Shown: positions 6,246-61,431 of the stretch, piece by piece
How the letters are laid out: each line of letters begins with the position of its first letter
Position numbering within the stretch: position 1 is the stretch's first letter
Assembly (NCBI GenBank): GCA_965368335.1
Contig: CBDUMN010000003.1
Location: 1,586 to 65,585, forward strand
DNA: 64,000 bases
Origin: an uncultured Rhodospirillales bacterium
GTDB lineage: Bacteria > Pseudomonadota > Alphaproteobacteria > Rhodospirillales > JAPHRK01
Reading direction: 5' to 3'
Made by a program: the position numbers and the translations under genes
The notes under the pieces: model-generated
The model's input: the letters and a program-made list of their open reading frames with translations, nothing else
What the model was told of the DNA's origin: nothing
The model's database searches: none

Positions 6246-6260
6246 TTAAGAAGCCGTTAA
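6246..6260. promoter_or_regulatory. CtrA-type box TTAA-N7-TTAA in the fliX/flgE divergent region
   Basis: TTAAGAAGCCGTTAA read directly. On the fliX strand it reads TTAACGGCTTCTTAA. It lies 56-70 bp upstream of the fliX ATG. fliX is a CtrA-dependent class II gene in Caulobacter. Confidence 0.35.
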
Positions 6261-46756: not shown

Positions 46757-47101
46757 CTAGCTTCCTTCGAGGAAACCTTCGGAAATTTGGAGATTGATAT
46801 TGATGAGGGTGTCCAAGGACTCGGAGGGTAATTCGACACCATGTTTCATAACGGTTTCTGCAACGAATTGGCTCAAACGAACCAAGTTCCCTGTTGTTTC
46901 TTCGGAAAGCCCATTGTCTGCCCGTTGCGCCAAAAGCCGAATGGCAATCCAGGTTTCCATGTTCTTTTCAAGCGCCGCCGCGAGCAGTCCTTGATCTTCC
47001 CGGGCATTATCCATCAGAACCGCGGCTTCAGATAACTGGTAAGCACTTTCTTTCGGTGCGTTTTCTTCCATTCCCGCGAAGGCCATTGATTCGTCTGCCA
47101 T
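46757..47101 (-). CDS. divergent FlaF-family protein (second copy)
   Basis: Aligns by eye with the FlaF at 59498-59938. LLAAALEKNMETWIAIRLL matches VLAAVRINWQLWTILQ, and LDTLININLQISEGF matches LDVLININRELAAGL. ATG 47101 is preferred (GGAAGGGG RBS). Confidence 0.55.
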   Translation of the reverse strand: MADESMAFAGMEENAPKESAYQLSEAAVLMDNAREDQGLLAAALEKNMETWIAIRLLAQRADNGLSEETTGNLVRLSQFVAETVMKHGVELPSESLDTLININLQISEGFLEGS

Positions 47102-47180
47102 ACTGACACCCCTTCCTATTAATGCCGTGTCCGGCCCACCTGTTTCACTGGCCGTCACGATACGCCGCACGATGCGGGAT

Positions 47181-49085: not shown

Positions 49086-50276
49086 ATGATCTCTCTTGAC
49101 CCTCTCCATCAAGCTTTGCGCAACAATCCTTCCGACCAATCCAATTGGATAAAACTTGGATTGGCCTTACTGCAGCTTGGTTGGCGTCAAGAGCTATTCA
49201 AACTCTGTCAAGTCCGCCAGGACCAATTCGGCGACGGTCCCCTTCTGTTGTTTACGATGCTCAACCATGCATCGACCCCTCAACTGAAACGCCGGATAGT
49301 CCAAATGGCCAATGATTCTCCGGCAGGGACACCGCTCACCATTATTTTTGATTTTTTCGCCGGTTGCCTCACACTGCTTGAAGGTAATCCTCGCAGTGGA
49401 TTTAGCTTTTTAGATAAAGCCGCCAGGAGTGCGGTCAATTTTGGAAGCCTGTTTCGGGATCACGAAAAGCTATCGAACATTATCATCCAACATTTTTTGA
49501 TCAGGCCGCCTGCTGATGTAGCCGAAACGGACCTTTCGTGGCCCCATACCGAACTCCCCCCTCTTGAGTGGGGAACGTCGGCACAGCAGCATCAAAAAAT
49601 CGAAAAAAATCTGGTCATCATGGCCTGCTGCAACGATACCTACCATCGTCGCTTTGGCGAGGAATTCATCAAAACTCTTTCGCCTTATGGCCACATCCAT
49701 ATCCACGTCGCCAACGCATCTGTAGAGATGCGGGAAGAATTGGAAAAGGATGCGGAAAATAAAGCCTTAAGCTACTCTTATGAAGACTCCGGTTCCCATG
49801 GAATCGGCCATTACTACGCCGTCATGCGGTTCCTCAACGCACGGGCGATTATGGAGTTCTTTAACCAGGATCTCCTTATTTTAGATATCGACTGCGAGAA
49901 AGTGTCGAACTTACCTGAACTCATCGAGGCCTCACAAAAGCACGATGTGAGCTATTTCAGAACCGGCAACTACATGCCCTGGCTCGACCACCACGCAGCT
50001 TATATGTATCTAGCGCAAACGGCCGGAGGACAAGCCTACGCTTCGCGCCTAAGGTCCTATATTGCCTCGAAACTAAACAAAGCCTGTTGGATGCTCGACC
50101 AATCATCCATGTGCTCTCTTTATAATTTTTATCTAAGCACCGATTTTCATGACGGGAAAACACCGGTCGATCTGCATACTTTCAAGCAGTCTGACGGATA
50201 CGATTTCTGGTCCTATTTTCAGCCAAGCGGAACTGCTGAAGAAAAATGGGAATATCGCCTACAAAAAAACGATTGA
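49086..50276 (+). CDS. hypothetical protein, possible GT-A-like nucleotide-sugar transferase
   Basis: 396 aa. The only hints are a central LVIMACCNDTY...LLILDIDCE (DxD-like) arrangement. The N-terminal ~60 aa look TPR-like. Confidence 0.3.
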   Translation: MISLDPLHQALRNNPSDQSNWIKLGLALLQLGWRQELFKLCQVRQDQFGDGPLLLFTMLNHASTPQLKRRIVQMANDSPAGTPLTIIFDFFAGCLTLLEGNPRSGFSFLDKAARSAVNFGSLFRDHEKLSNIIIQHFLIRPPADVAETDLSWPHTELPPLEWGTSAQQHQKIEKNLVIMACCNDTYHRRFGEEFIKTLSPYGHIHIHVANASVEMREELEKDAENKALSYSYEDSGSHGIGHYYAVMRFLNARAIMEFFNQDLLILDIDCEKVSNLPELIEASQKHDVSYFRTGNYMPWLDHHAAYMYLAQTAGGQAYASRLRSYIASKLNKACWMLDQSSMCSLYNFYLSTDFHDGKTPVDLHTFKQSDGYDFWSYFQPSGTAEEKWEYRLQKND

Positions 50277-50357: not shown

Positions 50358-52280
50358 TCATGAGCCCCCCTTGCCAATTGGGCCAGGTCTCAGCCCCTCT
50401 CCATAATGTTTCCACATGGTTAAATACAGGGTTTCGAGGTTCCTGACCTTTGCAGTTGTATCGAACAAGGGGTGGGTTTTTCTGTTTTCAACAACACGAT
50501 ATTTTAGTTTCCGCAGCCGACCGATATCTTCAACGATTTCCAGAACAAGATTTTCATACGCCTCAAGATCAGACGCGATAAGTTCTTCCAAACCATGCGA
50601 ACAAAGAAGGCTCTCGGAAACTCTGGAAGCAAAATGGCTCCCAGCAATGGCGACGACCGGGATACCGGCCCATAAGGCGTCCGTTGTCGTGGTGTGCCCC
50701 GTATAGATCCGCGTATCGAGTGCCAAATCGGCCAAAGCAATACGCGCCAGATGCTCAGGCTTTGAAAGCTTATCGGCGAAAATCAAGCGATTGTCTTCTA
50801 TCCCTGCGGCCCGCGCCTGGGCCTTTAAGTTTTTTTCAGCTTCTCGGTTATGGCCGAACAGCCAAAGTACGCTTCCTTGAATTTGATGGAGCAAAGACAT
50901 CCAGACGGAAAACATCTGCCTGTCGATTTTATATGTCTGACAGAAGCAGCAAAATACCAATGCATTTTCCGGCAAACCCTGTGAAGCTCGACTTAGCAAT
51001 TGAGGGCCCACAGCCTGTTCATTATCGGTTGGCCAGTAGGTCCCCTCAAGATAAGCGGGGGCTTCCGTGAAGAATGGGACATCGCTGGCCGGGCAAACGA
51101 TGTCATCAACAAGTACGTAGTCGAGGAAATCCCCCCCACAGGTACCGGGATAGCTAAGATACCCTACCTGCAACGGGGCTGGCCGTAATGCACAAATTTC
51201 GAGTCGCGAGCCGTCCGTATGCCCCGTCAAGGCGATGAGGATATCAATACCGTCTCGATTGATCCGTTCCGCCGCTTCTCCATCGTTCAAACCAGCAACA
51301 TCGACAAAGCGGTCGCACGATGCGGTTATCGCTTGGCGGTGAGGACTTCCGTCATCGGGACCGAAAGAATAGGCAAACACCTCAAAAACATCCCGGTTAT
51401 GCTTGCCATAAAGGCCTGCCGTATTATGGGCGGTGGGGTGATCGTAAAAATTTCCACTCAAATAGCCGATCCGAAGTTTCCCTCCATGGAAGCCACTCTG
51501 GTTAAAGGAAACCCGCTGGCGAATGGGCGCCAATTTATCGACCATCTCCGTCGACCAAGCTTTGGCGACTTCCAAATTTCGCTCTGGATGTGCACTCCTG
51601 GCGATACTCATAAACGGCGTTTCTCCAGGGCGTTCGCCATCGGCCAGGGCCTTAACAGTTTGCTCTTCCATACGCGCCTCAACCTGTTCCATCTCCTCCC
51701 AGGAGCAGGTTTTCTGCAGAATATGGAAAAGTTGCGCAACGGCATCACGATCATCAGGCACACAGGAGACAACCTGATTCAGCATTTGCTTTGCTTCCCC
51801 AAAACGCCCGAGAAGCTCCAGGGCGCAGCCCCGATTGTAAAGGGCGGCGCAATTATCAGGAGCAAACTCAAGGGCTTTGTCAAACCGGCCAAGCGCCTTT
51901 TCTAGTTCCCCCATTTTGAGATAAACGCCACCCAGATTAAGATTTAATACAGGGTTCTCGGGGGCAAGACTCAAGGCCTCTTTAATAACGGACTCGGCAC
52001 ACGTAAGATCGCCACGGGCAATCAGGGTCAAACCGAGATTAACCGACGCTTCACTGAATGATGGATTAATCTCGAGCGCCCTACGATAATGTGCTTCTGC
52101 TTCGGCATACCTCCCCAAATCTGACAAGGCATTACCTAGATTGCTAGGCACAGCTGCCGATTGCGGCGCAAGCTCCATAATACGCTTTAACAGATGTATG
52201 GCCGCCTCCGCCTCCCCTGCGGCCCTAAGCGCGCTGGCCTTCTCAAAAAGAACCGCAAGATTGTCTTTCGGCATGTCCAT
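50358..52280 (-). CDS. TPR-repeat / GT41 (O-GlcNAc-transferase, SPINDLY-like) glycosyltransferase
   Basis: Roughly five to six TPR units in the N-terminal ~200 aa. The C-terminal GT41 hallmarks are LRIGYLSGNFYDHPTAHN, DGIDILIALTGHTDGSRLEICALRPAPLQVGYLSYPGTCGGDFLDYVLVD, and ALVFCCFCQTYKI. Confidence 0.8.
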   Translation of the reverse strand: MDMPKDNLAVLFEKASALRAAGEAEAAIHLLKRIMELAPQSAAVPSNLGNALSDLGRYAEAEAHYRRALEINPSFSEASVNLGLTLIARGDLTCAESVIKEALSLAPENPVLNLNLGGVYLKMGELEKALGRFDKALEFAPDNCAALYNRGCALELLGRFGEAKQMLNQVVSCVPDDRDAVAQLFHILQKTCSWEEMEQVEARMEEQTVKALADGERPGETPFMSIARSAHPERNLEVAKAWSTEMVDKLAPIRQRVSFNQSGFHGGKLRIGYLSGNFYDHPTAHNTAGLYGKHNRDVFEVFAYSFGPDDGSPHRQAITASCDRFVDVAGLNDGEAAERINRDGIDILIALTGHTDGSRLEICALRPAPLQVGYLSYPGTCGGDFLDYVLVDDIVCPASDVPFFTEAPAYLEGTYWPTDNEQAVGPQLLSRASQGLPENALVFCCFCQTYKIDRQMFSVWMSLLHQIQGSVLWLFGHNREAEKNLKAQARAAGIEDNRLIFADKLSKPEHLARIALADLALDTRIYTGHTTTTDALWAGIPVVAIAGSHFASRVSESLLCSHGLEELIASDLEAYENLVLEIVEDIGRLRKLKYRVVENRKTHPLFDTTAKVRNLETLYLTMWKHYGEGLRPGPIGKGGS

Positions 52281-52478
52281 TTATTGCTGCAGCCATTTTT
52301 CATTGTGTGATGAACAGCACAGCCCCATATTTGGCAAAATCCTATGATAATTAACGCAAAAGCAACCAAGCGCCTGTTAAGAATAAGTGTAATATCTTTA
52401 CCAGTTGCCCTGAAAGAGCTAAAATATCTTTTGGCTCAACGAGTTAATTGAAGGCTGGAAGATAGAGACGGAACCGCC

Positions 52479-53552
52479 ATGGACGTATTGACCGCCAGCA
52501 CCAAACAGACCAGTTTTGCACTTGCCCGCCTATTAACCCAGATGAGCGAGAGCCAAGAGGCGCGCATTAAAACCGAAATGCGCCCCATTGAAGCGAAGCA
52601 TGATAAACGGGTCCATAATGCAGAATTGCAGATGGATCGCTGGAAAAAGGTCAGCAAAGATATTGGCGAAGCTACGTCAACACTCGCAGGGAATATCAGC
52701 AACTTAAAATCAATCCGATCAAAACTCGACGGACTGCTCTCAGCCGTCAACAAAGCCGACCAGCGGGCCTCAGACCCCAGCTTTAACCCTGATGGGTATG
52801 CAGCCTCATTCGACGCTCTTATGAAAAGCATTTCCTCCAGTACGGAAGACTCCGGGCGCGACGTCAATCTGATCGGAAAACGCAAAGTCTCACTTGAATA
52901 TCCAACCGATATTTATGGCCGTAAAGAAGAGGTTGGGAGCGTTTCTCTGGATAGCGACTATTACATCATCGATAACGATGGCGGGCGCTGGGTTCTTGAT
53001 CGGCAAGCCGGAAATCTTAAACGTTATACCGATTATCCAAATGGCGCGACGAGTTCTGTCGGCAGCTTTCCAACGGGCATTCAGTTAGACAGCATCGATT
53101 CAGACGACAACCTCACTTTTACCATTGCTCCAAATACGGCATCCCCAGAAACTTTTTCCGGGACGCTCTATCGTAGCGGACTTAACATTATGGATTCATG
53201 GTACTATGAGGGGCTTTCAACGGCGGATGCGCGAAATGCCGCAATTAGTGACATTCATTCTGCACGCAAAGCTATAAAGCTCGAAATTGCGCGATACGAA
53301 AGCCAGTTCTCTCTGGCTCAGTTCTATGAAGAACGCGCCAACGGCGAGGTCGGAGGCCTACGGGAAGATAAGAACGAAGCCTTGTTAGCCAAAGCAAAAG
53401 AGGTGGGAAAAGCCAAAGAAAAACTCATCCGGGAATTTCAAGCAGCGCAAGACGCCATCCAGATGTCGACGATACTTAAAAGAGAATATGCATCTTTTCT
53501 CAAACCAACGGCCAACACGCTGGGTCGGCAACTGATCAGCATCTTAAGTTAA
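52479..53552 (+). CDS. hypothetical protein with degenerate flagellin-like termini
   Basis: 357 aa. The helical N-terminal ~110 aa, a Ser/Thr/Asp/Gly-rich middle and a helical C-terminus parallel the flagellin at 60394-61311. YAASFDALMKSISSSTEDSGRDVNLIG matches EYSDQLKELAVQIEKLVSDATYQGLNLLN. FSLAQFYEERANGEVGGLREDKNEALLA matches LQVRADFTEEYIGTLETGAGKLTVADLNEEGANLLA. Confidence 0.4.
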   Translation: MDVLTASTKQTSFALARLLTQMSESQEARIKTEMRPIEAKHDKRVHNAELQMDRWKKVSKDIGEATSTLAGNISNLKSIRSKLDGLLSAVNKADQRASDPSFNPDGYAASFDALMKSISSSTEDSGRDVNLIGKRKVSLEYPTDIYGRKEEVGSVSLDSDYYIIDNDGGRWVLDRQAGNLKRYTDYPNGATSSVGSFPTGIQLDSIDSDDNLTFTIAPNTASPETFSGTLYRSGLNIMDSWYYEGLSTADARNAAISDIHSARKAIKLEIARYESQFSLAQFYEERANGEVGGLREDKNEALLAKAKEVGKAKEKLIREFQAAQDAIQMSTILKREYASFLKPTANTLGRQLISILS

Positions 53553-53563
53553 TCATCCAACAA

Positions 53564-55546
53564 TCAAACGTCTGAGCGGGAAGCGGTTTTTTTTATCTGC
53601 CTTAAAAAAGCCTGTGCCTCTTTAAATATTTCTCCCGCCAACACATCGAACCGCCCCAGAAAAAAACAGAAATAAGCTGTTCGATCTTTGTCGCTGGCTA
53701 TTCGGGAACCGCGATAGGTGCCTAAACGTGCCAAAGACAACAGCGACCCATGCACTAATCTCACTACGCCCCGGAATTTATCTCCTCCTTCCCCTAAAAC
53801 AGCCTCAACCTGCCGCTGCAAGGCAATATATTCTTGGGGAGGATTAGTTGAGATGGAATTGTGAAGGGCATCATAAAGCGCATCACATGCCTCAATATGA
53901 CCATCAAAATCGGTATCACGCAAAAATTCAGCTGGCGTAAAATATCTCAAACTCATTTCCAGTTCTGAAATAAGTGTCTTTTGCGATATATCGCATATCT
54001 GAAAATCCAGGGTATTTGAGGCTAATGACTTGGCGCCATCAACCCGCGCCCCCCAACTACAGTTCGTCACATCAAGATTTTTTGTTCTGATAAGTTCCGT
54101 GATGGTCCGTCGGGAGAGATCATAATAAGCAGACGTAGCAATCTCACCGCCAAAATTGCCGGGCACAAGGCGGGTAAATTCGCCTTCAAGATATTCATGC
54201 CCCTCGCCTTCAATAAAATTGTCATAGCCCTTTTCATAATAGACTGCGTCTTTGGAATGATGCAGTCCTCCTTGCACCCGACCACAATCGACGCCAAACA
54301 TGACAAACCTCTTAAATCCAAGGCTCGACATCGCCGCCAATGCCGCATTGGCAACCAGAGGACCGGCGTAGGCAACAGGCTCCCACTTTGATGCAAGAAC
54401 GTGGGCGGGACTGAGCGTTGAACGGAAGTAATACCAAACCCGCTCAAACATTTCACTGGCCTCCCGGTTAACGGTAGCCGAGGCGATAAGAGTGATCCCT
54501 TCAAAGCCGAATTCATCTTGGAAGGTCTTCAAGTTTTGAACGAGAGGATAAGAATTTTCGTTCTCTATATGGAAATCTGGTCTGATCCCATTTTTGAGCA
54601 AAACGCCTAAACTACTGCCACAACTAACAACCAGCGCCCCTTTGCGGAGCTTAGCGATATCCTTAAGATCATTATCCAGAGAAGGCCCCGAACCGACGAT
54701 GAAAACCGTCTCATCCCTAGTTGCAGAATTGCTCCCTTCTAAAAGACGGACGCTTCCGGTCGCCAGATTATCGACCGCATTCTCCATCATCATTTTTTCG
54801 TCGCCAAAATGACCGGGGCGGATTAGGAAATTCCCAATTCTTTCATTCAGTATTTTCCGGCATTCAATCACTTGCCAGGACGGATAATGAATAAAGGCAA
54901 AGGTCCCATCGATAAAACGCGCAGCTCCCGAATGTATAATGAGCGCCTCAGCTTCAAGCATAAACCGCTCCGGCGTCAGTCCAATTTTAAAGTGAAGAGC
55001 CGTTCCCTGGTCTTCTGCCTGTTTAAACACCTTTTCCCAGTCAAGGGCGTACATTGAATGCTTAACGAACTCCGGCACCGGCTCGACCACAACCATCTGT
55101 TCAGCCCTGCATTGCTCGAGAAGCATCGGAATGTGGTAGCCGAGTCCCAGACCAAAAACGAAAGCAATACCGACATCGCTCACAGGAAAGTCTTCGGAAA
55201 TCCCAATCCCATTTTCTTGAGCAAACCGGTCTAACTCTTCAGCGAGCCTAAATGTCAAGGAGGGCTGGCTATCATCCAGCGGGTCGGGGATTTTCAAACG
55301 ATCCGGGCTGGAAAGGTAAGCCGCAACCTGTTTGGTTACATAGGATTTCGCCGCCTCCGGATACAGCTCTACACCGGCAACTTTTAAATTTACCGCCTCA
55401 CCGCCTTGATAAACAACTTGTCCACCTTGGCCACCGTTTCCCGATAAAGATCGCAAAACATGTGGATGTGCCCTGGCAAACGCCTGGAGATTTCTCGAGT
55501 AGAGCGAGGCTGCCTTTATGTCATTCGGGCCCGACACCGGCAACAC
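53564..55546 (-). CDS. maf: motility accessory factor Maf (DUF115/MptE-like putative flagellin glycosyltransferase), copy 1
   Basis: The central Maf signature is VFIVGSGPSLDNDLKDIAKLRKGALVVSCGSSLGVLLKNGIRPDFHIENEN, followed by MFGVDCG. The annotated GTG 55546 may be replaced by GTG 55537 (GAGGG 7 nt upstream). Confidence 0.85.
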   Translation of the reverse strand: MLPVSGPNDIKAASLYSRNLQAFARAHPHVLRSLSGNGGQGGQVVYQGGEAVNLKVAGVELYPEAAKSYVTKQVAAYLSSPDRLKIPDPLDDSQPSLTFRLAEELDRFAQENGIGISEDFPVSDVGIAFVFGLGLGYHIPMLLEQCRAEQMVVVEPVPEFVKHSMYALDWEKVFKQAEDQGTALHFKIGLTPERFMLEAEALIIHSGAARFIDGTFAFIHYPSWQVIECRKILNERIGNFLIRPGHFGDEKMMMENAVDNLATGSVRLLEGSNSATRDETVFIVGSGPSLDNDLKDIAKLRKGALVVSCGSSLGVLLKNGIRPDFHIENENSYPLVQNLKTFQDEFGFEGITLIASATVNREASEMFERVWYYFRSTLSPAHVLASKWEPVAYAGPLVANAALAAMSSLGFKRFVMFGVDCGRVQGGLHHSKDAVYYEKGYDNFIEGEGHEYLEGEFTRLVPGNFGGEIATSAYYDLSRRTITELIRTKNLDVTNCSWGARVDGAKSLASNTLDFQICDISQKTLISELEMSLRYFTPAEFLRDTDFDGHIEACDALYDALHNSISTNPPQEYIALQRQVEAVLGEGGDKFRGVVRLVHGSLLSLARLGTYRGSRIASDKDRTAYFCFFLGRFDVLAGEIFKEAQAFLRQIKKTASRSDV

Positions 55547-57515
55547 CCTCTATCTTATCACGCCCTTCCGCCATTTGCCCGAGTACGTTACGGGTATCAT
55601 CGACCATCAGCTCAACTTTTTCCTTATAGGCCCCCATAAAAAAGCGGAGGAAAGCCAAACGGTCGTCTTGGTTAGCGATCCGCGTTCCGGCAAAAGCCCC
55701 AACCCGGATCATTGATACCAAGCTTGATCTGATAATAGAGAGAATACCCCGGCAGGGGGCTTCCAGGCGATCACGGAGGGTGATAATCCGGTGATGAAAA
55801 TCCCAAAAACTTTCATCCTCCCCGAAAGCCTCATCCATCGCCTTGAGAAATTCGTCCTCAAAAAGATCACATTTGGCGACAAGGTCATCGAGATCAAGAC
55901 CCGACAAATATTCTCCAGCAGGAAATGAGGGTAACGTCTGTGCAATACGGTTGATTAGCTGGGCCTGATACCCTTCAGGTCCATGAAAGGTCAGAGCCGA
56001 CGCGGCTTTAGGGGCAGCTCCATCTATCTTTGCACCATCACTGCAATTGACAACTTTGACATCGGATCGCTGGCATAAAGGGCCAAAACTAGCCCGCGAC
56101 ATGTCCAAATACCATGTCGTTAAGGCCTCACCACCAAAGTTGGCGGGGACAACACGGTCAAACTCATTCTCTAATAGCTCAAAACTTTCGCCTTCAAGAT
56201 AATTGTCATAATCGTCTTCATAATAAATCGCTTCACCTGCATGGTGGCCATGCTCGGTCCGTCGCCCGCAGTCCACTCCAAAGAAATAGAAATTACGGAA
56301 CCCAACGCTCAGCATAGCGGCCATCGCCGAATTGGCGACAAGGGGGTCGGCCCCTAAAAGAGGCGCAAGCCCTCGATTGAGAGAGGCTGTACAGCTCAAC
56401 CCCGTACGATAATAAAACCATCTTTTGTCAAAAAGTTTTCCAGCTTCAGGGTTTACCGATGTTGAGGCCACATAGGTAATGGGTGAAAGATCGTACTTTT
56501 TCGAAAAATTCCTGAGGTTCTCGACCAAAGGCCATGAATTTTCATTTTCTCCATGAAAATCCGGAACAATTCCGTTTTTCAAAAGAATCCCTAGACTGCT
56601 TGTCCCACAAGAAAAAACGATGGCCTTATTGCGCCATTTTTTGACAACGTCCAAATCCTTATCCAACGACGGTCCAGAACCCACAATGAAGACGGGTTGC
56701 TCTCTCTGAACGACCGGTTTTCGCTGGAGAAAGGAAAGCGGAAAACGATGCAGATTGCCGTAGGAGTTTGTCATCATCAGCAATTCATCTTCATAAAAGC
56801 CAGAAGAGATATAACTGACTGCAATCCTTTCATTGAGCAATCTGCGGGCTTCAAGAAGCTCCCAAGAGGGGTAGTGTATATAGGCGTAAGATCCCTCGAT
56901 AAAAGTTTTCCCGTCATCCCAAATATACCGTTCAATACTACGCACGATAACGGCAGGCGGCGCCCCTACGATAAAGCGCACCTCCACTGACTGCGCGTCT
57001 GCCGCTTCAAAAAAATCCGCCCAGTCGAAGACCTCAAATGAAGCACGAAGCAAAGCCGGTTGCGGCTCAATAAGAACCATGACCTTCGCTTTGTTATTTT
57101 CAAGCAGCAGCTTTAGGTGATGCCCAAGGCCAATACCAAAGACAAAGCAAAAACCGATATCAACAAGAGGATGGGAACTGACTTCTTCCCCATAATCGTT
57201 GGCGATGTAATCCCTGACCTTCGAAAGTAGATCTTTTGATATGGGTGATAAATTGCAATAGGCGGGGCTGGCGAAACCAATGCGATCCGGATCGTCAAAA
57301 TAGTTTTCAACCTGTTTCTGACTGCAGCCGACAGCAGGTTCCTGATAAAGCAGAGTACCGCCGATACTTACATCGACGGCCTCCCCTTCTTCATAAACAA
57401 TCGATACATCCGGTGAGCGCCGTTCTTCCCCAAGACGCCAGAGGTCAGGAGATCGCGTTTGAAAAATTTGTCTGTTTTTTTCAAATAAAGTTAGGTCGCC
57501 AGCTTGATTGTTCAT
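55521..57515 (-). CDS. maf: motility accessory factor Maf, copy 2 (tandem paralogue)
   Basis: VFIVGSGPSLDKDLDVVKKWRNKAIVFSCGTSSLGILLKNGIVPDFHGENEN and FFGVDCG. It is collinear with copy 1 along the whole length. Confidence 0.85.
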   Translation of the reverse strand: MNNQAGDLTLFEKNRQIFQTRSPDLWRLGEERRSPDVSIVYEEGEAVDVSIGGTLLYQEPAVGCSQKQVENYFDDPDRIGFASPAYCNLSPISKDLLSKVRDYIANDYGEEVSSHPLVDIGFCFVFGIGLGHHLKLLLENNKAKVMVLIEPQPALLRASFEVFDWADFFEAADAQSVEVRFIVGAPPAVIVRSIERYIWDDGKTFIEGSYAYIHYPSWELLEARRLLNERIAVSYISSGFYEDELLMMTNSYGNLHRFPLSFLQRKPVVQREQPVFIVGSGPSLDKDLDVVKKWRNKAIVFSCGTSSLGILLKNGIVPDFHGENENSWPLVENLRNFSKKYDLSPITYVASTSVNPEAGKLFDKRWFYYRTGLSCTASLNRGLAPLLGADPLVANSAMAAMLSVGFRNFYFFGVDCGRRTEHGHHAGEAIYYEDDYDNYLEGESFELLENEFDRVVPANFGGEALTTWYLDMSRASFGPLCQRSDVKVVNCSDGAKIDGAAPKAASALTFHGPEGYQAQLINRIAQTLPSFPAGEYLSGLDLDDLVAKCDLFEDEFLKAMDEAFGEDESFWDFHHRIITLRDRLEAPCRGILSIIRSSLVSMIRVGAFAGTRIANQDDRLAFLRFFMGAYKEKVELMVDDTRNVLGQMAEGRDKIEGVAGVGPE

Positions 57516-57555: not shown

Positions 57556-59490
57556 TCAGCAAACGTCTTTCCACAATCGCTCAAGAACCGTCTCCATATC
57601 AATGCAACGGGCCTTGAAATCAAACAACGGTGCTTTAGAGATTTTTTCAGCAGCATCCTGCTTGAAAGCTGCGCGCCCAGCCTCATCTTTAATCCATCGC
57701 TCAACTAAGGCTAAGTAATCTTTCCGGCTGGTCGCCACGCAACTTTCCGACATCCCCATTTGCGTCAGAACTTCCGCACTTACCTTATCCGCCGTGCGGC
57801 TACCTTTCATACAGATAGGAGGAACGCCAAAACCTGCACTTGTCACCACACTGAGATTTTGGTGACCGCTTGTAGGTACTAGCAGCAAGTCAATCTGAGA
57901 ATAAAACTCTGACTGCGTCGCGCTTTGAATAATGTCGATCCGGTGTGAAACACCAAAATTTCCAAATAAATCTAGGACTTTGCCCGCATTCTTCGCATTT
58001 TGGAAATCGTAATCCTGCATCAGCAAGGTTGCGCTAGGGTATTTTCTGAGAAGCTCCGCCCACAGTCCAACAGAATCTGGCGTCAACTCACACAGCTCGG
58101 CATCGACGCCAAACGTCAGAAGGTCACTCGTCCGCTCAAGAACAGAACGATCGTCGGGCTTAGGCACTTCCACCAGCATGTTTCCATGCTCAAGCAACAC
58201 GATCTTTTCTGCTAAAATACTCTTGTTTTCAGGAACCATCTCGCCCCCCAACATGAGAGCATCCATGTTCTTGAGCCCCGTTCCATAAGGCGTTCCATGG
58301 AGTGAAACTTGGAGAGGCGCCATACGGGCGCCGAATGCCCGCAACAACTGAGGATCATTAAACCCAACGGTATTGATAAAAATATCGACCCCTTCCGCCA
58401 AGCAAATGGCCGCCAAAGTCACCGGGTCCATTTCTCGAACATCGTGCCAGATATCAAATGCTTTTTGGTAATGGACATTTGATGCGTCACTTAAAGCCCC
58501 AAAACCGAAGCCAACCGTCCGGAAACGGGCGGCATTTCGGTGAGCGAGAATATTTGCAAGCGCTTTCCCCTCACTGCGACGGGATAGAGAGCCCAGCAGA
58601 TAGCCAGCGGTCAAAATCGGTTTGTCGGTTGCCTGCCCCTCATCAAAGCCTTGGTCTTCTTCGCCGAACCGAGCACCCCATTGAGCAGCCAGCTCACAAA
58701 GGGCTTCTTCCGTTGATTCTGGCGATAAGGCTAAATCTGAAATTGCTTTTGCAAAGTATTCAGAATTCTCGCTATCAAGATGCATCGCCCATTTGTGGAC
58801 GGACTGGCTTTGGCCATACTCACCAATGAGCGCGAGAAGAGATCCTAACATACTGGCGATATCAGGGTCTTCGGCTAGACGGTGCATTGCACCACGTAAA
58901 ATATCGACAGCTTCTTGGTAACGCCCCAATACCGTCAGGCAATTCACTAACCCAAGATAGGATTTCTTATCATCCTGCTTAAAATGAATACATTGCAAAA
59001 ACCAATGTATCGCCATCCCCCAGTCTTTAGACGAAACGGCCGCGACGGCACGAGTGAATAGTGGATTATCCTCAATATCGATAAAGGCGCTCGATAAGCT
59101 TGGAATCGATTGTGGCAAGATTTCCTTTAAGGCCGGAACGGAAGGAACCGAACTTGCTAATTTGGCATAAAACAGTGACTTGGTCAGTTCCCCTGCAAGG
59201 GCGTAAAGCACCGCCAAAAAATCGGCATATTCACTGACATTCGAATCCGCATTTAGCGCGGCTTCGCCAAGCGCCACGGCTTCAGCCCAGTCATCCTCAA
59301 GAAAGCGTCCAATTGCCAAAACATAGTACGCTTCAGCATAGATGGACGTTTCTTTTAAATCGGCTTGTTGCTCAAGAAAAGCAGCGCAGGCATTGCTAAT
59401 ATCAGACCAATTACCGTCCGCAACACCTTCGCCAACAATCGAAAGGAAACCCTCCCGCGTCGTAGCGGCATCAATAACCAAATTACTCAT
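57556..59490 (-). CDS. TPR-repeat / GT41-like glycosyltransferase (FlmG-like architecture)
   Basis: The N-terminal ~280 aa are TPR-like. The C-terminal half follows the GT41 layout (GVDIFINTVGFNDPQLLRAFGARMAPLQVSLHGTPYGTGLKNMDALMLG ... LLTFGVDAELCELT). It lies 7 bp downstream of flaF. Confidence 0.7.
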   Translation of the reverse strand: MSNLVIDAATTREGFLSIVGEGVADGNWSDISNACAAFLEQQADLKETSIYAEAYYVLAIGRFLEDDWAEAVALGEAALNADSNVSEYADFLAVLYALAGELTKSLFYAKLASSVPSVPALKEILPQSIPSLSSAFIDIEDNPLFTRAVAAVSSKDWGMAIHWFLQCIHFKQDDKKSYLGLVNCLTVLGRYQEAVDILRGAMHRLAEDPDIASMLGSLLALIGEYGQSQSVHKWAMHLDSENSEYFAKAISDLALSPESTEEALCELAAQWGARFGEEDQGFDEGQATDKPILTAGYLLGSLSRRSEGKALANILAHRNAARFRTVGFGFGALSDASNVHYQKAFDIWHDVREMDPVTLAAICLAEGVDIFINTVGFNDPQLLRAFGARMAPLQVSLHGTPYGTGLKNMDALMLGGEMVPENKSILAEKIVLLEHGNMLVEVPKPDDRSVLERTSDLLTFGVDAELCELTPDSVGLWAELLRKYPSATLLMQDYDFQNAKNAGKVLDLFGNFGVSHRIDIIQSATQSEFYSQIDLLLVPTSGHQNLSVVTSAGFGVPPICMKGSRTADKVSAEVLTQMGMSESCVATSRKDYLALVERWIKDEAGRAAFKQDAAEKISKAPLFDFKARCIDMETVLERLWKDVC

Positions 59491-59497
59491 CGAAACC

Positions 59498-59938
59498 TCA
59501 CGCGGTTATTTCACCATTGCCTAGCCCCTGGGGGACCTCCGCCTCTTCCTCTTTTTCTTTCTCTTTGGAAGAGCCGGGCAGCGGCGTCCTCAACCCAGCG
59601 GCCAACTCCCGGTTGATATTGATCAACACATCAAGCTTCTTATGATCCGGGTTCGCAATGAGATCCATGGAATATTTATCGATAAAATTCGCAAGAGAAA
59701 TGCCATTATTCCGGATATCATCCGGCAAGGGGCACTCTGGGCTGAGCAATTCCGCTTGCAGAATAGTCCAAAGCTGCCAATTAATGCGAACTGCAGCCAG
59801 AACAACCTCTGTCTCACCGCTTTCTTTCGCCGCTTTAAGCCGCAAGGCTGCTTGGGTTAATCCCCAGGCCTCAACCTCCCTCGGGTTCCCCGGAGCCGGG
59901 GGCGTCTCGTAGTTTTTCAGCAAGTTGTTCGTTGACAT
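59498..59938 (-). CDS. flaF: flagellar biosynthesis regulator FlaF
   Basis: LKNYETPPAPGNPREVEAWGLTQAALRL...NWQLWTILQAELLSPECPLPDDIRNNGISLANFI...LININRELAAGL matches the FlaF family pattern. Confidence 0.85.
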   Translation of the reverse strand: MSTNNLLKNYETPPAPGNPREVEAWGLTQAALRLKAAKESGETEVVLAAVRINWQLWTILQAELLSPECPLPDDIRNNGISLANFIDKYSMDLIANPDHKKLDVLININRELAAGLRTPLPGSSKEKEKEEEAEVPQGLGNGEITA

Positions 59939-60320
59939 GCATAAAAACCTTACTTTCGTGGGAAATAAGTCTCTGCGCTTTCTTCAAAGCCTTATAAAGT
60001 TCCCGTTTTTCAACCAGTCGCCATAACTCATCACCAATCGGCTGGGCGCTTGGTGCAGCCTTTAGGTAATCTGACAGGAATTCATTAAAGCGCCGTAAAT
60101 TGTCGGTGAATTCTGATGGGAAAAGGTAGAGACACTGCAAGGCGTAATAGGCCCGTGCGGCCGGGGTGACGGCGTCTTCCGGCGAAAGAACATCATTATC
60201 ACGCAATAGCGAGGCATCGTTCTTCAGAAGCAAGGATACATTACTGCTTCCGGTATTTTCGATAACCGCCCCGTTGATGATAATCTGCTGACCTTTTTTC
60301 AAATGAATTTTAAGCGGCAT
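59871..60320 (-). CDS. flbT: flagellin translational repressor FlbT
   Basis: MPLKIHLKKGQQIIINGAVIENTGSSNVSLLLKNDASLLRDNDVL...ARAYYALQCLYL is the conserved FlbT N-terminal pattern. Confidence 0.9.
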   Translation of the reverse strand: MPLKIHLKKGQQIIINGAVIENTGSSNVSLLLKNDASLLRDNDVLSPEDAVTPAARAYYALQCLYLFPSEFTDNLRRFNEFLSDYLKAAPSAQPIGDELWRLVEKRELYKALKKAQRLISHESKVFMHVNEQLAEKLRDAPGSGEPEGG

Positions 60321-60331
60321 GAACGACTTCC

Positions 60332-60371
60332 CCTAAAAAAATAACAGCCAGGGTAAAAAATACCCTGGCTG
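60332..60371 (-). terminator. strong Rho-independent terminator after the flagellin gene
   Basis: The minus strand reads CAGCCAGGGTA-TTTTT-TACCCTGGCTG (perfect 11-bp stem) followed by TTATTTTTTTAGG. Confidence 0.8.
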
Positions 60372-60393
60372 CCACTTTAAGAAAAGGAATGTC

Positions 60394-61311
60394 TTACCTG
60401 AACAGACCCAGGATCGACTGCTCGGCCTGACCTGCGAAGGACAGAGCCTGGATACCCAGCTGCTGCCTGGTCTGCAAAGCAAGAAGGTTCGCACCTTCTT
60501 CGTTAAGGTCGGCCACCGTCAGCTTGCCAGCACCGGTTTCGAGAGTGCCAATGTACTCTTCGGTAAAGTCGGCGCGGACCTGAAGAATGGCCACGTTGTT
60601 CGCCATCGTTGCCGCTTCAGCCTGAATGTTACTGATCGTTTCATCAAGACGAGTAACCGCCGTATCGGCCATAACGTTAAACGAAGCGAGAACTTCGGCG
60701 TCATCGAAATCAAATGTCGAAAGCAACGCCCCAAAACCGAGCGTACTCTGAACGATATCCTCCGTAACAGATGCGTTCGGTGCATTGAGCGCCGAACCGG
60801 CGGAATCCAAGAAGAAGGTCGAAGCATTGAAATCAACGCCATCCACATCCAGCTTAGAATCAGCCTTGTCGGAGAAGCGAACCGAAAGCTTCGAAGACGT
60901 GGAGTTCAAGAGGTTCAGACCCTGGTAAGTCGCATCGCTGACCAGCTTTTCGATCTGAACAGCCAGCTCTTTTAGCTGATCCGAGTACTCGGCGCGCTGA
61001 GCCGTGTCACCACTACGGGCACTGTCGATAATACCCTTCATCTGCTTGGCGAGATCTTCCAGCGCATCGGCCGCCTTCAAAGCGGTGTCGAGAGCGCTGA
61101 TACCTTGGTCGATCGCCGACTTACGGTCGGAAAGATCGGCCGCGCGGTCATTCAACGACTTAGCCTGGAAAAACTTCACCGCGTCATCAGACGGCGATGC
61201 AATTTCCAAGCCCGTCGACAGACGACCCTGCGTCCGGTCAATAAGACTTGTCGTATTTTGCAGAGAAAGTAGGTTTGAGCGTACTGCTGAGGATAGAGAT
61301 ACATCAGCCAT
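60394..61311 (-). CDS. flagellin (305 aa, alphaproteobacterial short type)
   Basis: N-terminus LSSAVRSNLLSLQNTTSLIDRTQGRLSTGLEIASPSDDAVKFFQAKSLNDRAADL and C-terminus NLLALQTRQQLGIQALSFAGQAEQSILGLFR. AAGGGAG RBS. Confidence 0.95.
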   Translation of the reverse strand: MADVSLSSAVRSNLLSLQNTTSLIDRTQGRLSTGLEIASPSDDAVKFFQAKSLNDRAADLSDRKSAIDQGISALDTALKAADALEDLAKQMKGIIDSARSGDTAQRAEYSDQLKELAVQIEKLVSDATYQGLNLLNSTSSKLSVRFSDKADSKLDVDGVDFNASTFFLDSAGSALNAPNASVTEDIVQSTLGFGALLSTFDFDDAEVLASFNVMADTAVTRLDETISNIQAEAATMANNVAILQVRADFTEEYIGTLETGAGKLTVADLNEEGANLLALQTRQQLGIQALSFAGQAEQSILGLFR

Positions 61312-61382
61312 TAGGAATTCTCCCTTTCTAGGTGAGACTGTACAGTTTGCGCTTTTCTAGCGCTTGCACACTGTATCATGCT

Positions 61383-61431
61383 GAAAATGAAAAATCCATT
61401 AACCTTATGGGCGTGGGGATATTTTCATTTC
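61383..61431. promoter_or_regulatory. imperfect inverted repeat upstream of flagellin
   Basis: GAAAATGAAAAATCC (61383-61397) and GGATATTTTCATTTC (61417-61431) form a ~15-bp imperfect inverted repeat with a 19-bp spacer, 72-120 bp upstream of the flagellin ATG. Confidence 0.25.

What the first reader, a model, noticed from the sequence alone, without database searches (positions are those of the whole stretch)
52479..53552. Orphan protein with degenerate flagellin-like N- and C-terminal helices
This 357-aa ORF is the only plus-strand gene between two transferase operons. It converges on maf with an 11-bp gap. It has no enzyme motifs, but its layout mimics an axial flagellar protein: a helical N-terminus, a Ser/Thr/Asp/Gly-rich middle and a helical C-terminus. 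Two segments parallel the bona fide flagellin in this window: ...FDALMKSI......G.DVNLIG and ...F.EE.....GGL..D.NE.LLA. It could be a cryptic minor flagellin, a cap or junction-like protein, a decoy substrate or chaperone-like adaptor for the glycosyltransferases, or something entirely new.
Basis: inference. Interest (0 to 1): 0.65.

Follow-up and report, generated by a model that had tools for sequence, protein, structure and literature searches.

The report
Divergent flagellin relative beside flagellin glycosyltransferases
This gene encodes a real, conserved but unstudied protein that is a very distant relative of flagellin, the building block of the bacterial swimming filament; it sits among the enzymes that attach sugars to flagellin, so it is probably either a second sugar-coated, exported flagellar part or a helper for those enzymes.

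Summary
The ORF (52479-53552, +, 357 aa) is a real gene under purifying selection. It is not an orphan: a profile search finds 181 family representatives, nearly all 340-410 aa, including cultured Terasakiella, Novispirillum and Roseospira.

No member matches Pfam Flagellin_N/C. Three other tests place the family in the flagellin superfamily:
- The family profile hits Caulobacter flagellins in the PDB (E=2e-6, colinear over the full length).
- Profile-profile comparison with the window's flagellin family gives E=3e-8; reversed and shuffled controls give E>=0.015.
- A high-confidence AlphaFold model (pLDDT 92) has only flagellins and FlgL among its top 50 Foldseek hits.

The family differs from canonical flagellins. 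The Gly-containing D0-D1 "spoke" motif is missing, the two long helices are unbroken and weakly conserved, and the beta-domain and its junction are the best-conserved part.

It is not FlgL, which lies after flgK in this window. It is not FliD, GlfM or DUF1217/CP1 either. In 10 of 12 independent loci it lies in a flagellar or flagellin-glycosylation cluster. Maf is immediately adjacent in seven and a TPR-fused modifying enzyme lies nearby in ten.

Function is inferred only. Best guess (about 0.4): a glycosylated, flagellar-exported accessory subunit. Main rival: a cytoplasmic flagellin-mimic adaptor for Maf/FlmG-type transferases.

The parts
52479..53552 (+). CDS of the 357-aa divergent flagellin-superfamily protein (the finding)
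   Evidence: ORF and translation. Family of 181 representatives. Purifying selection. Flagellin homology.
52479..52505 (+). aa 1-9: predicted disordered N-terminus with a family-conserved start, M-[STV]-x-[VI]-L-[ST]
   Evidence: pLDDT below 50 for residues 1-8. Termini listing and higher conservation than the adjacent helix.
52506..52763 (+). aa 10-95: one uninterrupted helix equivalent to flagellin ND0 + ND1a; it lacks the R-L-S-T-G-L 'spoke' motif
   Evidence: Model. Aligned to flagellin residues about 17-100. No indels and no Gly/Pro enrichment at aa 28-46.
52788..52847 (+). aa 104-123: ND1b-like helix carrying the FDxxLKSI motif, followed by the NL.G turn (L131 nearly invariant)
52890..53180 (+). 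aa 138-234: beta-hairpin plus a seven-strand beta domain (about 84 residues inserted relative to Caulobacter flagellins); well conserved and 20-22% Ser/Thr
   Evidence: Model. Conservation profile. Composition. Unmatched profile positions 126-209 against FljN.
53109..53264 (+). aa 211-262: the most conserved segment, F-T-I...T-G-T-L...G-L-G...S-W-x-Y..L-T..G-R..A..D...A. It is homologous to the flagellin segment L-T-F...T-L-T-G-L-G-L...T-T-A..A...I-D-T-A that leads into helix CD1
   Evidence: Nearly invariant G228, G234, W241, Y243, A255, A262. Information content 2.0-2.5 bits. Residue-level alignment to FljN/FljM.
53223..53513 (+). aa 249-345: one uninterrupted helix equivalent to flagellin CD1 + CD0
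53514..53549 (+). aa 346-357: Gly/Pro-rich break and a short terminal helix with the conserved ending [LF]-[LIV]-[DN]-[IL]-[LT]-[AV]; about 15 residues beyond the flagellin C-terminus
52281..52478 (.). Divergent intergenic region shared with the GT41-TPR gene, containing blocks conserved in the two closest loci; the promoter type was not identified
   Evidence: Alignment A4. Only weak sigma-70-like matches, no more than chance.
50358..52280 (-). TPR + GT41 glycosyltransferase (FlmG/OGT-like), transcribed divergently from the target; this pairing recurs in 6 independent loci
   Evidence: Pfam. Contexts.
53564..55546 (-). Maf flagellin nonulosonic-acid glycosyltransferase, convergent with the target (11-bp gap); no TPR detected
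   Evidence: Pfam Maf_flag10_N + MptE-like. Maf is adjacent to the target in 7 of 12 loci.
55521..57515 (-). Second Maf paralogue (37% identical to the first)
57556..59490 (-). Second TPR/GT41-like (FlmG-like) glycosyltransferase
59498..61311 (-). Canonical flaF (59498-59938), flbT (59871-60320) and flagellin (60394-61311) genes
46757..47170 (-). Second, divergent FlaF-like gene ('FlaF2'). It is 65-66% identical to island copies in two other target-bearing lineages and 21-27% identical to canonical FlaF. In L001 it directly follows target-maf

Best explanation
**Shown.** The gene encodes a member of a conserved, uncharacterised subfamily of the flagellin superfamily found in Rhodospirillales-type alphaproteobacteria.
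- It keeps the flagellin chain topology: N-terminal helices, ND1b helix, beta-hairpin, inserted beta-domain, C-terminal helices.
- It keeps flagellin-like helix lengths and short conserved termini.
- It has lost the Gly-containing D0-D1 spoke motif and the Pfam-detectable signatures.
- Its best-conserved part is the beta-domain and its junction with the C-terminal helix.

**Inferred, the mechanism I commit to.** It arose from a flagellin duplicate inside the flagellin locus. It is still handled like flagellin.
1. The neighbouring soluble flagellin glycosyltransferases (Maf and/or the divergently transcribed TPR-GT41 enzyme) recognise it in the cytoplasm through its flagellin fold and glycosylate Ser/Thr of its beta-domain.
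2. It is then exported through the flagellar type III system, using its disordered N-terminus and C-terminal helix. The island-specific FlaF2 may serve as chaperone.
3. It ends up as a low-copy, specialised extracellular part of the flagellum and not as a bulk lattice subunit. The unbroken helices and conserved head suggest a terminal or accessory position.

Confidence that it is a flagellum-linked flagellin homologue is about 0.9. Confidence in the exported, glycosylated-subunit mechanism is about 0.4.
For: **Homology**
- Family profile against PDB sequences: FljN E=2.3e-6, FljM 3.5e-6, FljK 6e-5, in two colinear stretches covering N and C halves.
- hhalign family profile against flagellin profile: E=3e-8 local and 1.2e-11 global. 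Reversed and shuffled controls give E>=0.015.
- The window flagellin is the only window protein that matches the family profile: E=1e-5 against 0.044 for FlgL, with noise for FlgK and FlgE.

**Fold**
- pLDDT 92.3, pTM 0.81.
- Top-50 Foldseek hits are all flagellins or FlgL; TM normalised to target is 0.61-0.63 against Caulobacter flagellins.

**Axial-protein-like constraints**
- Helix lengths are almost invariant: N region median 96 aa (IQR 95-99) and C region 118 aa (IQR 115-120). There are no indels in aa 11-96 or aa 251-341.
- The extreme termini are more conserved than the adjoining helices and are predicted disordered.

**Context**
- L016 reads flgK-flgL-neuB-TARGET-CMP-sugar synthetase-flagellin-flbT-flaF-GT41/TPR-maf, all on one strand.
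- L010 (Novispirillum) reads flagellin-flbT-flaF-TPR-maf-TARGET.
- L001 reads TARGET-maf-flaF2.
- The window and five other loci read GT41-TPR<->TARGET-><-maf.
- A paralogue sits between flgDE with TPR-sulfotransferase genes and fliF.

**Literature**
- Maf and FlmG act on folded flagellin in the cytoplasm before export (bioRxiv 10.1101/2022.03.25.485807).
- Maf needs the D1 helical scaffold and is cognate-specific (PMC11339370).
- The window has two Mafs and at least two TPR-GT41 enzymes but only one canonical flagellin.
Against: - There is no experimental data on export, glycosylation or localisation for any family member.
- The conservation pattern is the inverse of structural flagellins: helices 1.2-1.5 bits, beta-domain and junction 1.9-2.5 bits. 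That fits a protein-binding head better than an exposed filament surface.
- The spoke motif that lets D0 and D1 sit in the inner and outer tubes is absent. No Gly/Pro hinge is conserved at either expected junction, so normal lattice assembly is doubtful.
- The family is patchy. It is absent from the analogous Rhodospirillum rubrum cluster as listed in PMC12363192 Table S2C.
- Two distant members lie in non-flagellar neighbourhoods.
- FlaF2 accompanies the gene in only 3 lineages within the 10 kb examined.
- No Maf clade tracks the gene.
Confidence: 0.4

Rival explanations
1. Cytoplasmic flagellin-mimic adaptor or specificity factor. The protein stays in the cell. It uses its conserved beta-domain and junction to bind Maf and/or the TPR of the GT41 enzyme, and its flagellin-like helices to engage flagellin or FlaF. 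It thereby directs or gates glycosylation. This would be a functional analogue of GlfM, the cis-encoded factor that TPR-less Maf-2 enzymes need.
For: - The gene is conserved immediately next to maf in 7 of 12 loci, in all three orientations.
- The window Mafs have no detectable TPR.
- GlfM sets the precedent for a conserved maf-flanking accessory gene that bridges Maf-2 and flagellin (bioRxiv 10.1101/2023.12.03.569772).
- The conserved head with variable helices and the loss of the lattice-relevant spoke fit a binding protein better than a polymerising one.
- A TPR-fused modifying enzyme lies nearby in 10 of 12 loci, including a TPR-sulfotransferase beside the paralogue.
Against: - It is unrelated to GlfM in size and fold: 357 aa and flagellin-like, against 89 aa and a four-helix bundle.
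- An adaptor has no obvious need to keep full-length D0-equivalent helices, constant helix lengths and flagellin-like disordered termini.
- One locus has the gene with GT41-TPR and a GT1-family enzyme but no Maf.
- Two members have no transferase neighbours at all.
- No Maf clade co-varies with it.
Confidence: 0.25
2. Regulatory flagellin paralogue. Like Caulobacter FljJ, it would not build filament. It would act with FlbT and FlaF (or FlaF2) as a secretion-sensitive co-regulator of flagellin translation, coupling flagellin synthesis to export or to sugar supply.
For: - The system is of the FlaF/FlbT type.
- Caulobacter has one regulatory paralogue among six flagellins, and it is also glycosylated (PMC7591256 abstract).
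- An extra FlaF-like gene accompanies the target in three lineages and follows target-maf directly in L001.
- The flagellin 5' UTR carries a conserved hairpin that could be the regulated element.
Against: - FljJ is a normal, Pfam-recognisable flagellin. This family is far more diverged and has a large conserved beta-domain that such a role would not need.
- The gene tracks glycosyltransferases more than flbT/flaF.
- No experimental link exists.
Confidence: 0.12
3. Filament cap of a FliD-less alphaproteobacterial flagellum. Oligomers would sit at the growing tip, with the helical legs inserted like flagellin and the conserved beta-heads forming the plate that helps flagellin fold.
For: - No fliD or fliS is present in the 64-kb window, although it holds flgE, flgI, flgN, flgK, flgL, flaF, flbT and flagellin.
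- FlaF/FlbT-type systems such as Phaeobacter lack FliD (PMC12363192).
- A conserved head with less conserved legs and a low-copy late-gene position after flgKL would suit a cap.
Against: - No FliD structure appears among the top 50 fold hits, and there is no FliD_N/FliD_C match.
- The family is too patchy for an essential part. It is absent from the R. rubrum alpha-type cluster table and from Caulobacter and Rhizobiales as far as the searches reached.
- One genome has two diverged paralogues.
- The rest of the genome was not available, so a fliD elsewhere cannot be excluded.
Confidence: 0.1
4. A decaying relic of a duplicated flagellin gene, or a chance ORF with no function.
For: No Pfam or NCBIfam match. 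Loss of the flagellin signature motifs.
Against: - pN is 0.17-0.18 against saturated pS of about 0.8.
- There are 181 family representatives of constant length.
- Residues are invariant across 17-40% identity.
- The AlphaFold model is highly confident.
- Synteny is conserved.
Confidence: 0.02

Closest known systems
Alphaproteobacterial structural flagellins (Caulobacter FljK/L/M/N, PDB 8uxj, 8uxn, 9cef; the window's own flagellin at 60394-61311)
   Same: - Best sequence-profile and fold matches.
- Colinear ND0/ND1a, ND1b, beta-hairpin, ...T-G-L-G... segment, then CD1/CD0.
- Similar helix lengths and hydrophobic C-terminal ending.
- Same gene neighbourhood with flaF, flbT, Maf and FlmG-like transferases.
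   Different: - No Pfam Flagellin_N/C match.
- The R-L-S-T-G-L spoke motif is replaced by continuous helix.
- About 84 residues of conserved beta-domain are inserted.
- About 15 extra C-terminal residues.
- Conservation is highest in the centre instead of D0/D1.
Non-filament flagellin homologues: Campylobacter FlaC (secreted, not needed for motility; PMC4863622), Caulobacter FljJ (regulatory paralogue; PMC7591256), Sphingomonas p5/p6 cell-surface flagellin (PDB 3k8v, 2zbi)
   Same: - They set the precedent that flagellin-fold proteins can be retained for roles other than bulk filament.
- Sphingomonas p5 is among the top four to seven fold hits.
   Different: - Those proteins are readily recognised as flagellins by sequence; this family is not.
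- None of them is described as syntenic with Maf or TPR-glycosyltransferases.
- No functional data exist here.
GlfM, the cis-encoded specificity factor of TPR-less Maf-2 glycosyltransferases (bioRxiv 10.1101/2023.12.03.569772)
   Same: A conserved gene of previously unknown function flanking maf inside flagellin glycosylation loci. Both are derived from a flagellum-related fold (GlfM resembles FliS/FliT).
   Different: GlfM is 89 aa and a four-helix bundle. This protein is 357 aa with a flagellin fold. No sequence or fold relationship was found, so a shared role is only a hypothesis.
FlgL (hook-filament junction protein 3)
   Same: Member of the same superfamily. Weak matches were found: PDB 3pwx E=0.015, Xanthomonas FlgL at Foldseek ranks 39 and 43 (rank 47), and window FlgL E=0.044 at the homologous position.
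   Different: The window already has flgL directly after flgK (about 12214-13752). It is 36% identical to the post-flgK gene of L016 and matches a Novispirillum gene that carries a Flagellin_C hit. The target is closer to flagellin than to FlgL.

Membership tests
Flagellin superfamily (flagellin/FlgL-type D0-D1 axial proteins) | Match to the curated sequence models Pfam PF00669 Flagellin_N and PF00700 Flagellin_C (or NCBIfam flagellin models) | tested here: not met
   The target has no hit at E<=0.1 in Pfam or NCBIfam. None of 65 diverse family members hits either Pfam model at E<=1. The window's bona fide FlgL also has no Pfam hit at 1e-5, so the models are insensitive in this lineage.
Flagellin superfamily (flagellin/FlgL-type D0-D1 axial proteins) | Statistically supported, colinear sequence similarity to bona fide flagellins over both N- and C-terminal helical regions | tested here: met
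   hmmsearch of family profile A2 against PDB: FljN 2.3e-6, FljM 3.5e-6, FljK 6e-5, with two colinear stretches. hhalign A2 against flagellin alignment A3: Prob 95%, E=3e-8, 272 columns; global E=1.2e-11. Reversed and 24 shuffled controls score <=24.7 against 62.9.
Flagellin superfamily (flagellin/FlgL-type D0-D1 axial proteins) | Fold: long N- and C-terminal helices packing together, ND1b helix, beta-hairpin, with the variable domain inserted between hairpin and CD1 | tested here: met
   AlphaFold2 model pLDDT 92.3, pTM 0.81. Foldseek against PDB: 48 hits at E<=1e-3, the top 50 listed all flagellins or FlgL, with full-length alignments. The same result came from the shallower model.
Flagellin superfamily (flagellin/FlgL-type D0-D1 axial proteins) | Conserved ND0-ND1 'spoke' loop (R-L-S-[ST]-G-x-[RK]-[IV]) and a CD1-CD0 break that allow the inner-tube and outer-tube arrangement | tested here: not met
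   The motif is aligned to helical, Gly-free sequence. Gly/Pro frequency is 0-9% per position at aa 28-46 and is not enriched at aa 283-298. There are no indels in aa 11-96 or aa 251-341. The model shows unbroken helices.
Flagellin superfamily (flagellin/FlgL-type D0-D1 axial proteins) | Conservation concentrated in D0/D1 with a hypervariable centre (structural flagellins) | tested here: not met
   Inverse pattern: helices 1.2-1.5 bits, beta-domain 1.9 bits, junction aa 241-265 2.2 bits. In the flagellin alignment A3 the invariant columns lie in positions 5-153 and 208-303.
Flagellin superfamily (flagellin/FlgL-type D0-D1 axial proteins) | Export by the flagellar type III system and assembly into the axial structure | not testable with these tools
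   Only indirect evidence: no Sec signal is visible, the termini are predicted disordered and conserved, and the context is flagellar.
FlgL (HAP3) | Gene immediately downstream of flgK, one per flagellar system | tested here: not met
   flgK is at 9945-12200 and is followed by a 512-aa FlgL candidate at about 12214-13752. The target lies 39 kb away and is closer to flagellin than to FlgL.
FliD filament cap | FliD_N/FliD_C sequence models, or a FliD-like fold | tested here: not met
   No Pfam match. No FliD chain among the top 50 Foldseek hits; the cap-filament complex hits (9gnz chains of about 490 aa) are of flagellin length.
GlfM (Maf-2 specificity factor) | Protein of about 90 aa, four-helix bundle, FliS/FliT-like, with a conserved Asp in helix 4 | tested here: not met
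   The target is 357 aa with a flagellin-type fold. GlfM description from the paper. Only the maf-flanking position is shared.
DUF1217 / CP1 of Rhodobacterales fla1 flagella | Pfam DUF1217 domain | tested here: not met
   CP1 (PGA1_c23640) is annotated DUF1217. Neither the target nor 65 relatives have such a Pfam hit.

The most novel reading that the evidence does not exclude
A flagellin gene duplicate has been converted into a non-polymerising flagellin mimic that works inside the glycosylation machinery. One form of this reading is a specificity adaptor or gatekeeper that presents flagellin to TPR-less Maf and to TPR-GT41 enzymes, possibly together with the FlaF2 paralogue. This would be a second, unrelated solution to the problem GlfM solves. 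The other form is the long-missing filament cap of FliD-less FlaF/FlbT-type alphaproteobacterial flagella.
Probability: 0.3. Interest if true: 0.8.

Novelty: new variant of a known kind. Interest (0 to 1): 0.5.

Why it matters
- **Substrate choice by flagellin glycosyltransferases.** Flagellin glycosylation by Maf and FlmG enzymes is widespread, but how the enzymes choose their substrates is only starting to be understood; GlfM was described in 2023.
- **Missing parts in alphaproteobacterial flagella.** FlaF/FlbT-type flagella lack recognisable FliD and FliS, so parts of their late assembly pathway are unknown.
- **A candidate for both questions.** This is a conserved, unannotated flagellin-derived protein that travels with maf, TPR-glycosyltransferases and sometimes a second FlaF. 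It is a concrete, testable candidate for an unrecognised player in either process.
- **An annotation gap.** NCBI calls members "hypothetical protein" and Pfam has no model, while UniRef labels two members "Flagellin" without evidence that they build filaments.
- **If ordinary.** If it turns out to be just a minor glycosylated flagellin, the value is a better annotation and one more example of extreme flagellin divergence.

Tried and rejected
- **Direct BLASTP** of the target against the window flagellin and against the neighbouring 396-aa ORF gave no signal.
- **Shallow profile.** The single target sequence, or the 12-sequence profile, against flagellin was not significant (E=0.09-0.14). Homology appears only with the 65-sequence profile.
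- **Third database search** with the 65-sequence alignment returned only 9 known members because coiled-coil words swamped the candidates.
- **Genome-collection scan.** The first attempt, with the 65-sequence alignment, failed because it had no conserved stretch. The repeat with the 12-sequence alignment found only 3 loci.
- **Plasmid collection** held no homologue.
- **CP1 of Phaeobacter.** Its mutant secretes flagellin but makes no filament. I followed it as a possible homologue and rejected it because it is DUF1217.
- **FlgL identity** is rejected by synteny.
- **Promoters.** No sigma-54 or sigma-28 consensus is visible upstream. Sigma-70-like matches are no more than chance. The single CtrA-box match in the window lies upstream of flgE, not of the target. 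The upstream regions of target and flagellin share no clear motif.
- **Maf clade test.** Looking for a Maf clade that tracks the target gave an uninformative identity matrix.
- **Hinge test.** Gly/Pro hinges at the D0-D1 junctions exist in the closest relatives (P36; G289, G292, G293) but are not conserved family-wide.
Full report
**1. The observation**

The ORF is exactly as described: 52479-53552 on the + strand, ATG to TAA, 357 aa. It converges on a Maf glycosyltransferase gene (53564-55546, -) across 11 bp.

It is a real gene.
- The start and the N-terminus MDVLTAS are conserved.
- Non-synonymous differences to the two closest loci are 17-18% of sites, while synonymous sites are saturated at about 80%.

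It is not an orphan.
- A word-indexed search found 12 clusters.
- An exhaustive profile search found 181 representatives at E<=1e-3, 127 of them at E<=1e-10, almost all 340-410 aa.
- Members occur in cultured Novispirillum itersonii, Terasakiella brassicae and Roseospira marina. UniRef labels the last two 'Flagellin', while NCBI calls them hypothetical.

**2. Surroundings**

The window carries one alphaproteobacterial (FlaF/FlbT-type) flagellar late-gene region split by a very large glycosylation island.
- At 6.4-13.8 kb lie flgE, flgI, flgN, flgK and a 512-aa FlgL candidate.
- From 16 to 64 kb lie sugar-nucleotide, nonulosonic-acid (NeuB, LegC-type aminotransferase, NeuD), radical-SAM, methyltransferase and glycosyltransferase genes.
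- Around the target the order is: TIGR04372 glycosyltransferase and a divergent FlaF-like gene; a 396-aa unknown; TPR-GT41 (-); target (+); Maf (-); Maf (-); TPR/GT41-like (-); FlaF; FlbT; flagellin.
- No fliD or fliS is present in the window.

**3. What the protein is**

Curated models do not see it.
- There is no Pfam or NCBIfam hit for the target.
- None of 65 diverse relatives hits Flagellin_N/C even at E<=1; only coiled-coil noise appears.
- Pairwise BLAST against the window flagellin is empty.

With a deep family profile the relationship becomes clear.
- hmmsearch against all PDB sequences puts Caulobacter flagellins on top: FljN 2.3e-6, FljM 3.5e-6, FljK 6e-5 to 2e-4. Each has two colinear stretches, family positions 11-125 against flagellin 17-132 and 210-345 against 137-272. 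A Vibrio FlgL (0.015) and S. meliloti FlaA (0.07) follow.
- Profile-profile comparison with 29 flagellins related to the window's own gives Prob 95%, E=3e-8 over 272 colinear columns. In global mode it is E=1.2e-11 over 299 columns.
- The same comparison with the flagellin profile reversed, or column-shuffled 24 times, never exceeds score 24.7 (E>=0.015) against 62.9.
- Among window proteins, only flagellin matches the family profile (E=1e-5). FlgL reaches 0.044, and FlgK, FlgE, FlgN and FlaF are noise.

The structure prediction agrees.
- With the 65-sequence alignment the AlphaFold2 model reaches pLDDT 92.3 and pTM 0.81.
- It has helix 10-95, helix 104-123, a beta-hairpin and a seven-strand beta-domain (138-234), and helix 249-345.
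- Foldseek against the PDB returns flagellins, plus Xanthomonas FlgL, for all 50 listed hits. Alignments are full-length, and TM is 0.61-0.63 normalised to the 270-aa Caulobacter flagellins. The earlier, shallower model gave the same list.

**4. How it differs from a working flagellin**

- *The spoke is gone.* The Gly-containing ND0-ND1 spoke (R-L-S-T-G-L in the window flagellin) is replaced by helix-compatible sequence. Across the family there is no Gly/Pro enrichment and not a single indel in aa 11-96 or aa 251-341. The only breaks are at aa 96-106 and aa 341-350. The closest relatives have P36 and G289/G292/G293 near the expected junctions, but this is not family-wide.
- *Conservation is inverted.* The long helices carry 1.2-1.5 bits per position, the beta-domain 1.9, and the junction into the C-terminal helix 2.2-2.5. 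The nearly invariant residues are L131, G228, G234, W241, Y243, A255 and A262.
- *Part of the conserved stretch is itself flagellin-derived.* F-T-I...T-G-T-L...G-L-G...L-T..G-R..A..D...A aligns with FljN L-T-F...T-L-T-G-L-G-L...T-T-A..A...I-D-T-A. About 84 residues before it are an insertion with no counterpart in the short Caulobacter flagellins.
- *Extra C-terminal residues.* About 15 residues extend beyond the flagellin C-terminus.
- *Features kept.* Helix lengths are tightly fixed: medians 96 and 118 aa, with IQR of 4-5 residues. Both extreme termini are better conserved than the adjoining helices, are predicted disordered, and resemble flagellin ends (M-x-x-[VI]-L-[ST]... and ...[LF]-[LIV]-[DN]-[IL]-[LT]-[AV]).

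**5. Context elsewhere**

I examined twelve independent neighbourhoods.
- Five (L003, L005, L014, L015 and the window) show TPR-GT41 (-) | target (+) | Maf Maf TPR/GT41 FlaF FlbT flagellin (-).
- A Thalassospiraceae MAG has target-Maf-FlaF2 on one strand beside Leg/Pse-type genes.
- Novispirillum has flagellin-FlbT-FlaF-TPR protein-Maf-target on one strand.
- A Terasakiella-like genome has flgE-flgI-flgJ-flgN-flgK-flgL-neuB-target-CMP-sugar synthetase-flagellin-flbT-flaF-GT41/TPR-maf on one strand.
- A Hyphomicrobiales MAG has TPR-GT41 | target overlapping a GT1-family gene, with no Maf.
- A second, 29-32% identical paralogue in the Thalassospiraceae genome lies between flgD-flgE with TPR-sulfotransferase and formyltransferase genes and fliF-fliG.
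- Two distant members lie among unrelated genes.

So the family belongs to flagellar loci, is most often immediately beside maf, and almost always lies near a TPR-fused modifying enzyme.

A distinct FlaF subfamily accompanies it in three lineages, once directly after target-maf. These copies are 59-66% identical to one another across the alignment and 21-27% identical to canonical FlaF. This 'FlaF2' was not seen within 10 kb in the other loci. No Maf clade tracks the gene.

**6. What it probably does**

Nothing here is experimental.

Established knowledge:
- Maf and FlmG-type enzymes are soluble. They bind folded flagellin and glycosylate it in the cytoplasm before type III export (bioRxiv 10.1101/2022.03.25.485807).
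- The TPR domains of FlmG and Maf-1 are the flagellin-binding modules. TPR-less Maf-2 needs a small cis-encoded adaptor, GlfM (bioRxiv 10.1101/2023.12.03.569772).
- A Clostridium Maf needs the D1 scaffold of its cognate flagellin and ignores non-cognate flagellins (PMC11339370).

A flagellin-fold protein encoded among these enzymes is therefore most simply another client: recognised through its fold, glycosylated on its Ser/Thr-rich domain, and exported.
- The preserved helix lengths and flagellin-like termini favour this reading.
- The missing spoke and the conserved head argue that it is not a bulk lattice subunit. It would be a low-copy accessory or terminal part.
- I give this about 0.4.

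The rivals:
- *Cytoplasmic flagellin mimic (0.25).* The inverted conservation, the loss of the spoke and the persistent adjacency to maf fit almost as well a protein that binds the transferases and steers them, as GlfM does.
- *FljJ-like regulatory paralogue working with FlbT/FlaF or FlaF2 (0.12).*
- *Replacement for the FliD cap (0.10).* FliD is absent from the window and from FlaF/FlbT-type systems such as Phaeobacter (PMC12363192). The patchy distribution counts against it. The analogous R. rubrum cluster goes from flgL straight to two TPR proteins, flaF, flbT and fliC.
- *Non-functional relic.* Excluded by the selection data.

**7. Comparison with what is known, and novelty**

- The protein passes the homology and fold tests for the flagellin superfamily. 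It fails the curated-model, spoke-motif and conservation-pattern tests that characterise working flagellins.
- It is not FlgL, FliD, GlfM or DUF1217/CP1 (see the membership rows).
- The nearest analogies are flagellin homologues kept for other jobs: Campylobacter FlaC (PMC4863622), Caulobacter FljJ (PMC7591256) and Sphingomonas p5 (PDB 3k8v).
- I found no paper on this family. Databases either ignore it or auto-name it 'Flagellin'.
- I rate it a new variant of a known kind, of moderate interest. It would become important if it proves to be a glycosylation adaptor or the missing cap.

Noticed in passing
window 46757-47170 (-); L001 13327-13662; L003 4385-4717: A second, divergent FlaF-like gene ('FlaF2') sits inside the glycosylation island. 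The three copies are 59-66% identical to each other across the alignment and only 21-27% identical to canonical FlaF. In L001 it directly follows target-maf. It could be a dedicated chaperone or a Maf adaptor analogous to the FliS-like GlfM.
   Followed up: partly
window 12214-13752 (+) (ORF listed from 12088): The gene after flgK, a 512-aa presumed FlgL, has no Pfam hit at 1e-5. It is 36% identical to the post-flgK gene of L016 and 26% identical to a Novispirillum gene that carries a weak Flagellin_C hit. Axial proteins of this lineage generally escape the curated models.
   Followed up: partly
window 49086-50276 (+); L014 4277-5470; L015 4276-5469: A 396-aa protein with no Pfam or NCBIfam match is conserved (66-68% identity) in the same position next to the TPR-GT41 genes in the two closest loci. 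It is unrelated to the target (BLASTP E=2.2).
   Followed up: partly
window 61312-61400 (- strand; flagellin 5' region): The flagellin leader is almost invariant across three loci. It contains a perfect hairpin, GCGCTAGAAAAGCGC, followed by CTGTACAGTCTCACCTAGAAAGGGAG just before the ATG. This is a plausible FlbT-responsive 5' UTR element.
   Followed up: no
window 16000-64000: The flagellar glycosylation island is unusually large, about 48 kb. It holds at least six candidate protein or sugar transferases: two Maf, two TPR-GT41, TPR-GT61 at 28259-30040, TIGR04372 at 47249-48766, and GT1 at 38833-40116. It also holds four radical-SAM enzymes (one with a B12-binding domain), a NeuB fused to a xylose-isomerase-like TIM-barrel domain (35662-37905), a transketolase pair, and a 590-aa methyltransferase. 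This implies a heavily tailored nonulosonic-acid glycan.
   Followed up: no
window 32469-33692 (-) and 34422-35639 (-): Two ORFs of about 405 aa inside the island have no Pfam match and no counterpart in any fetched locus.
   Followed up: no
L011 10001-11074 (Thalassospiraceae MAG, same contig as L001): The same genome carries a second family paralogue (P0050, 29-32% identical). It lies between flgD-flgE with TPR-sulfotransferase, formyltransferase and pentapeptide genes, and fliF-fliG-fliN-motA-flbD-flhA. The family has therefore duplicated within flagellar loci.
   Followed up: partly
window 6246-6260 (+): This is the only full CtrA-box match (TTAA-N7-TTAA) in the window. It lies about 170 bp upstream of flgE. 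The count is no more than chance, but the position is suggestive.
   Followed up: no
L014 748-4162 and L015 73-4117: Several genes of 343-360 aa without any Pfam hit lie at the edge of the island in the two closest relatives. They have no equivalent at the corresponding place in the window, and whether they are related to one another was not checked.
   Followed up: no
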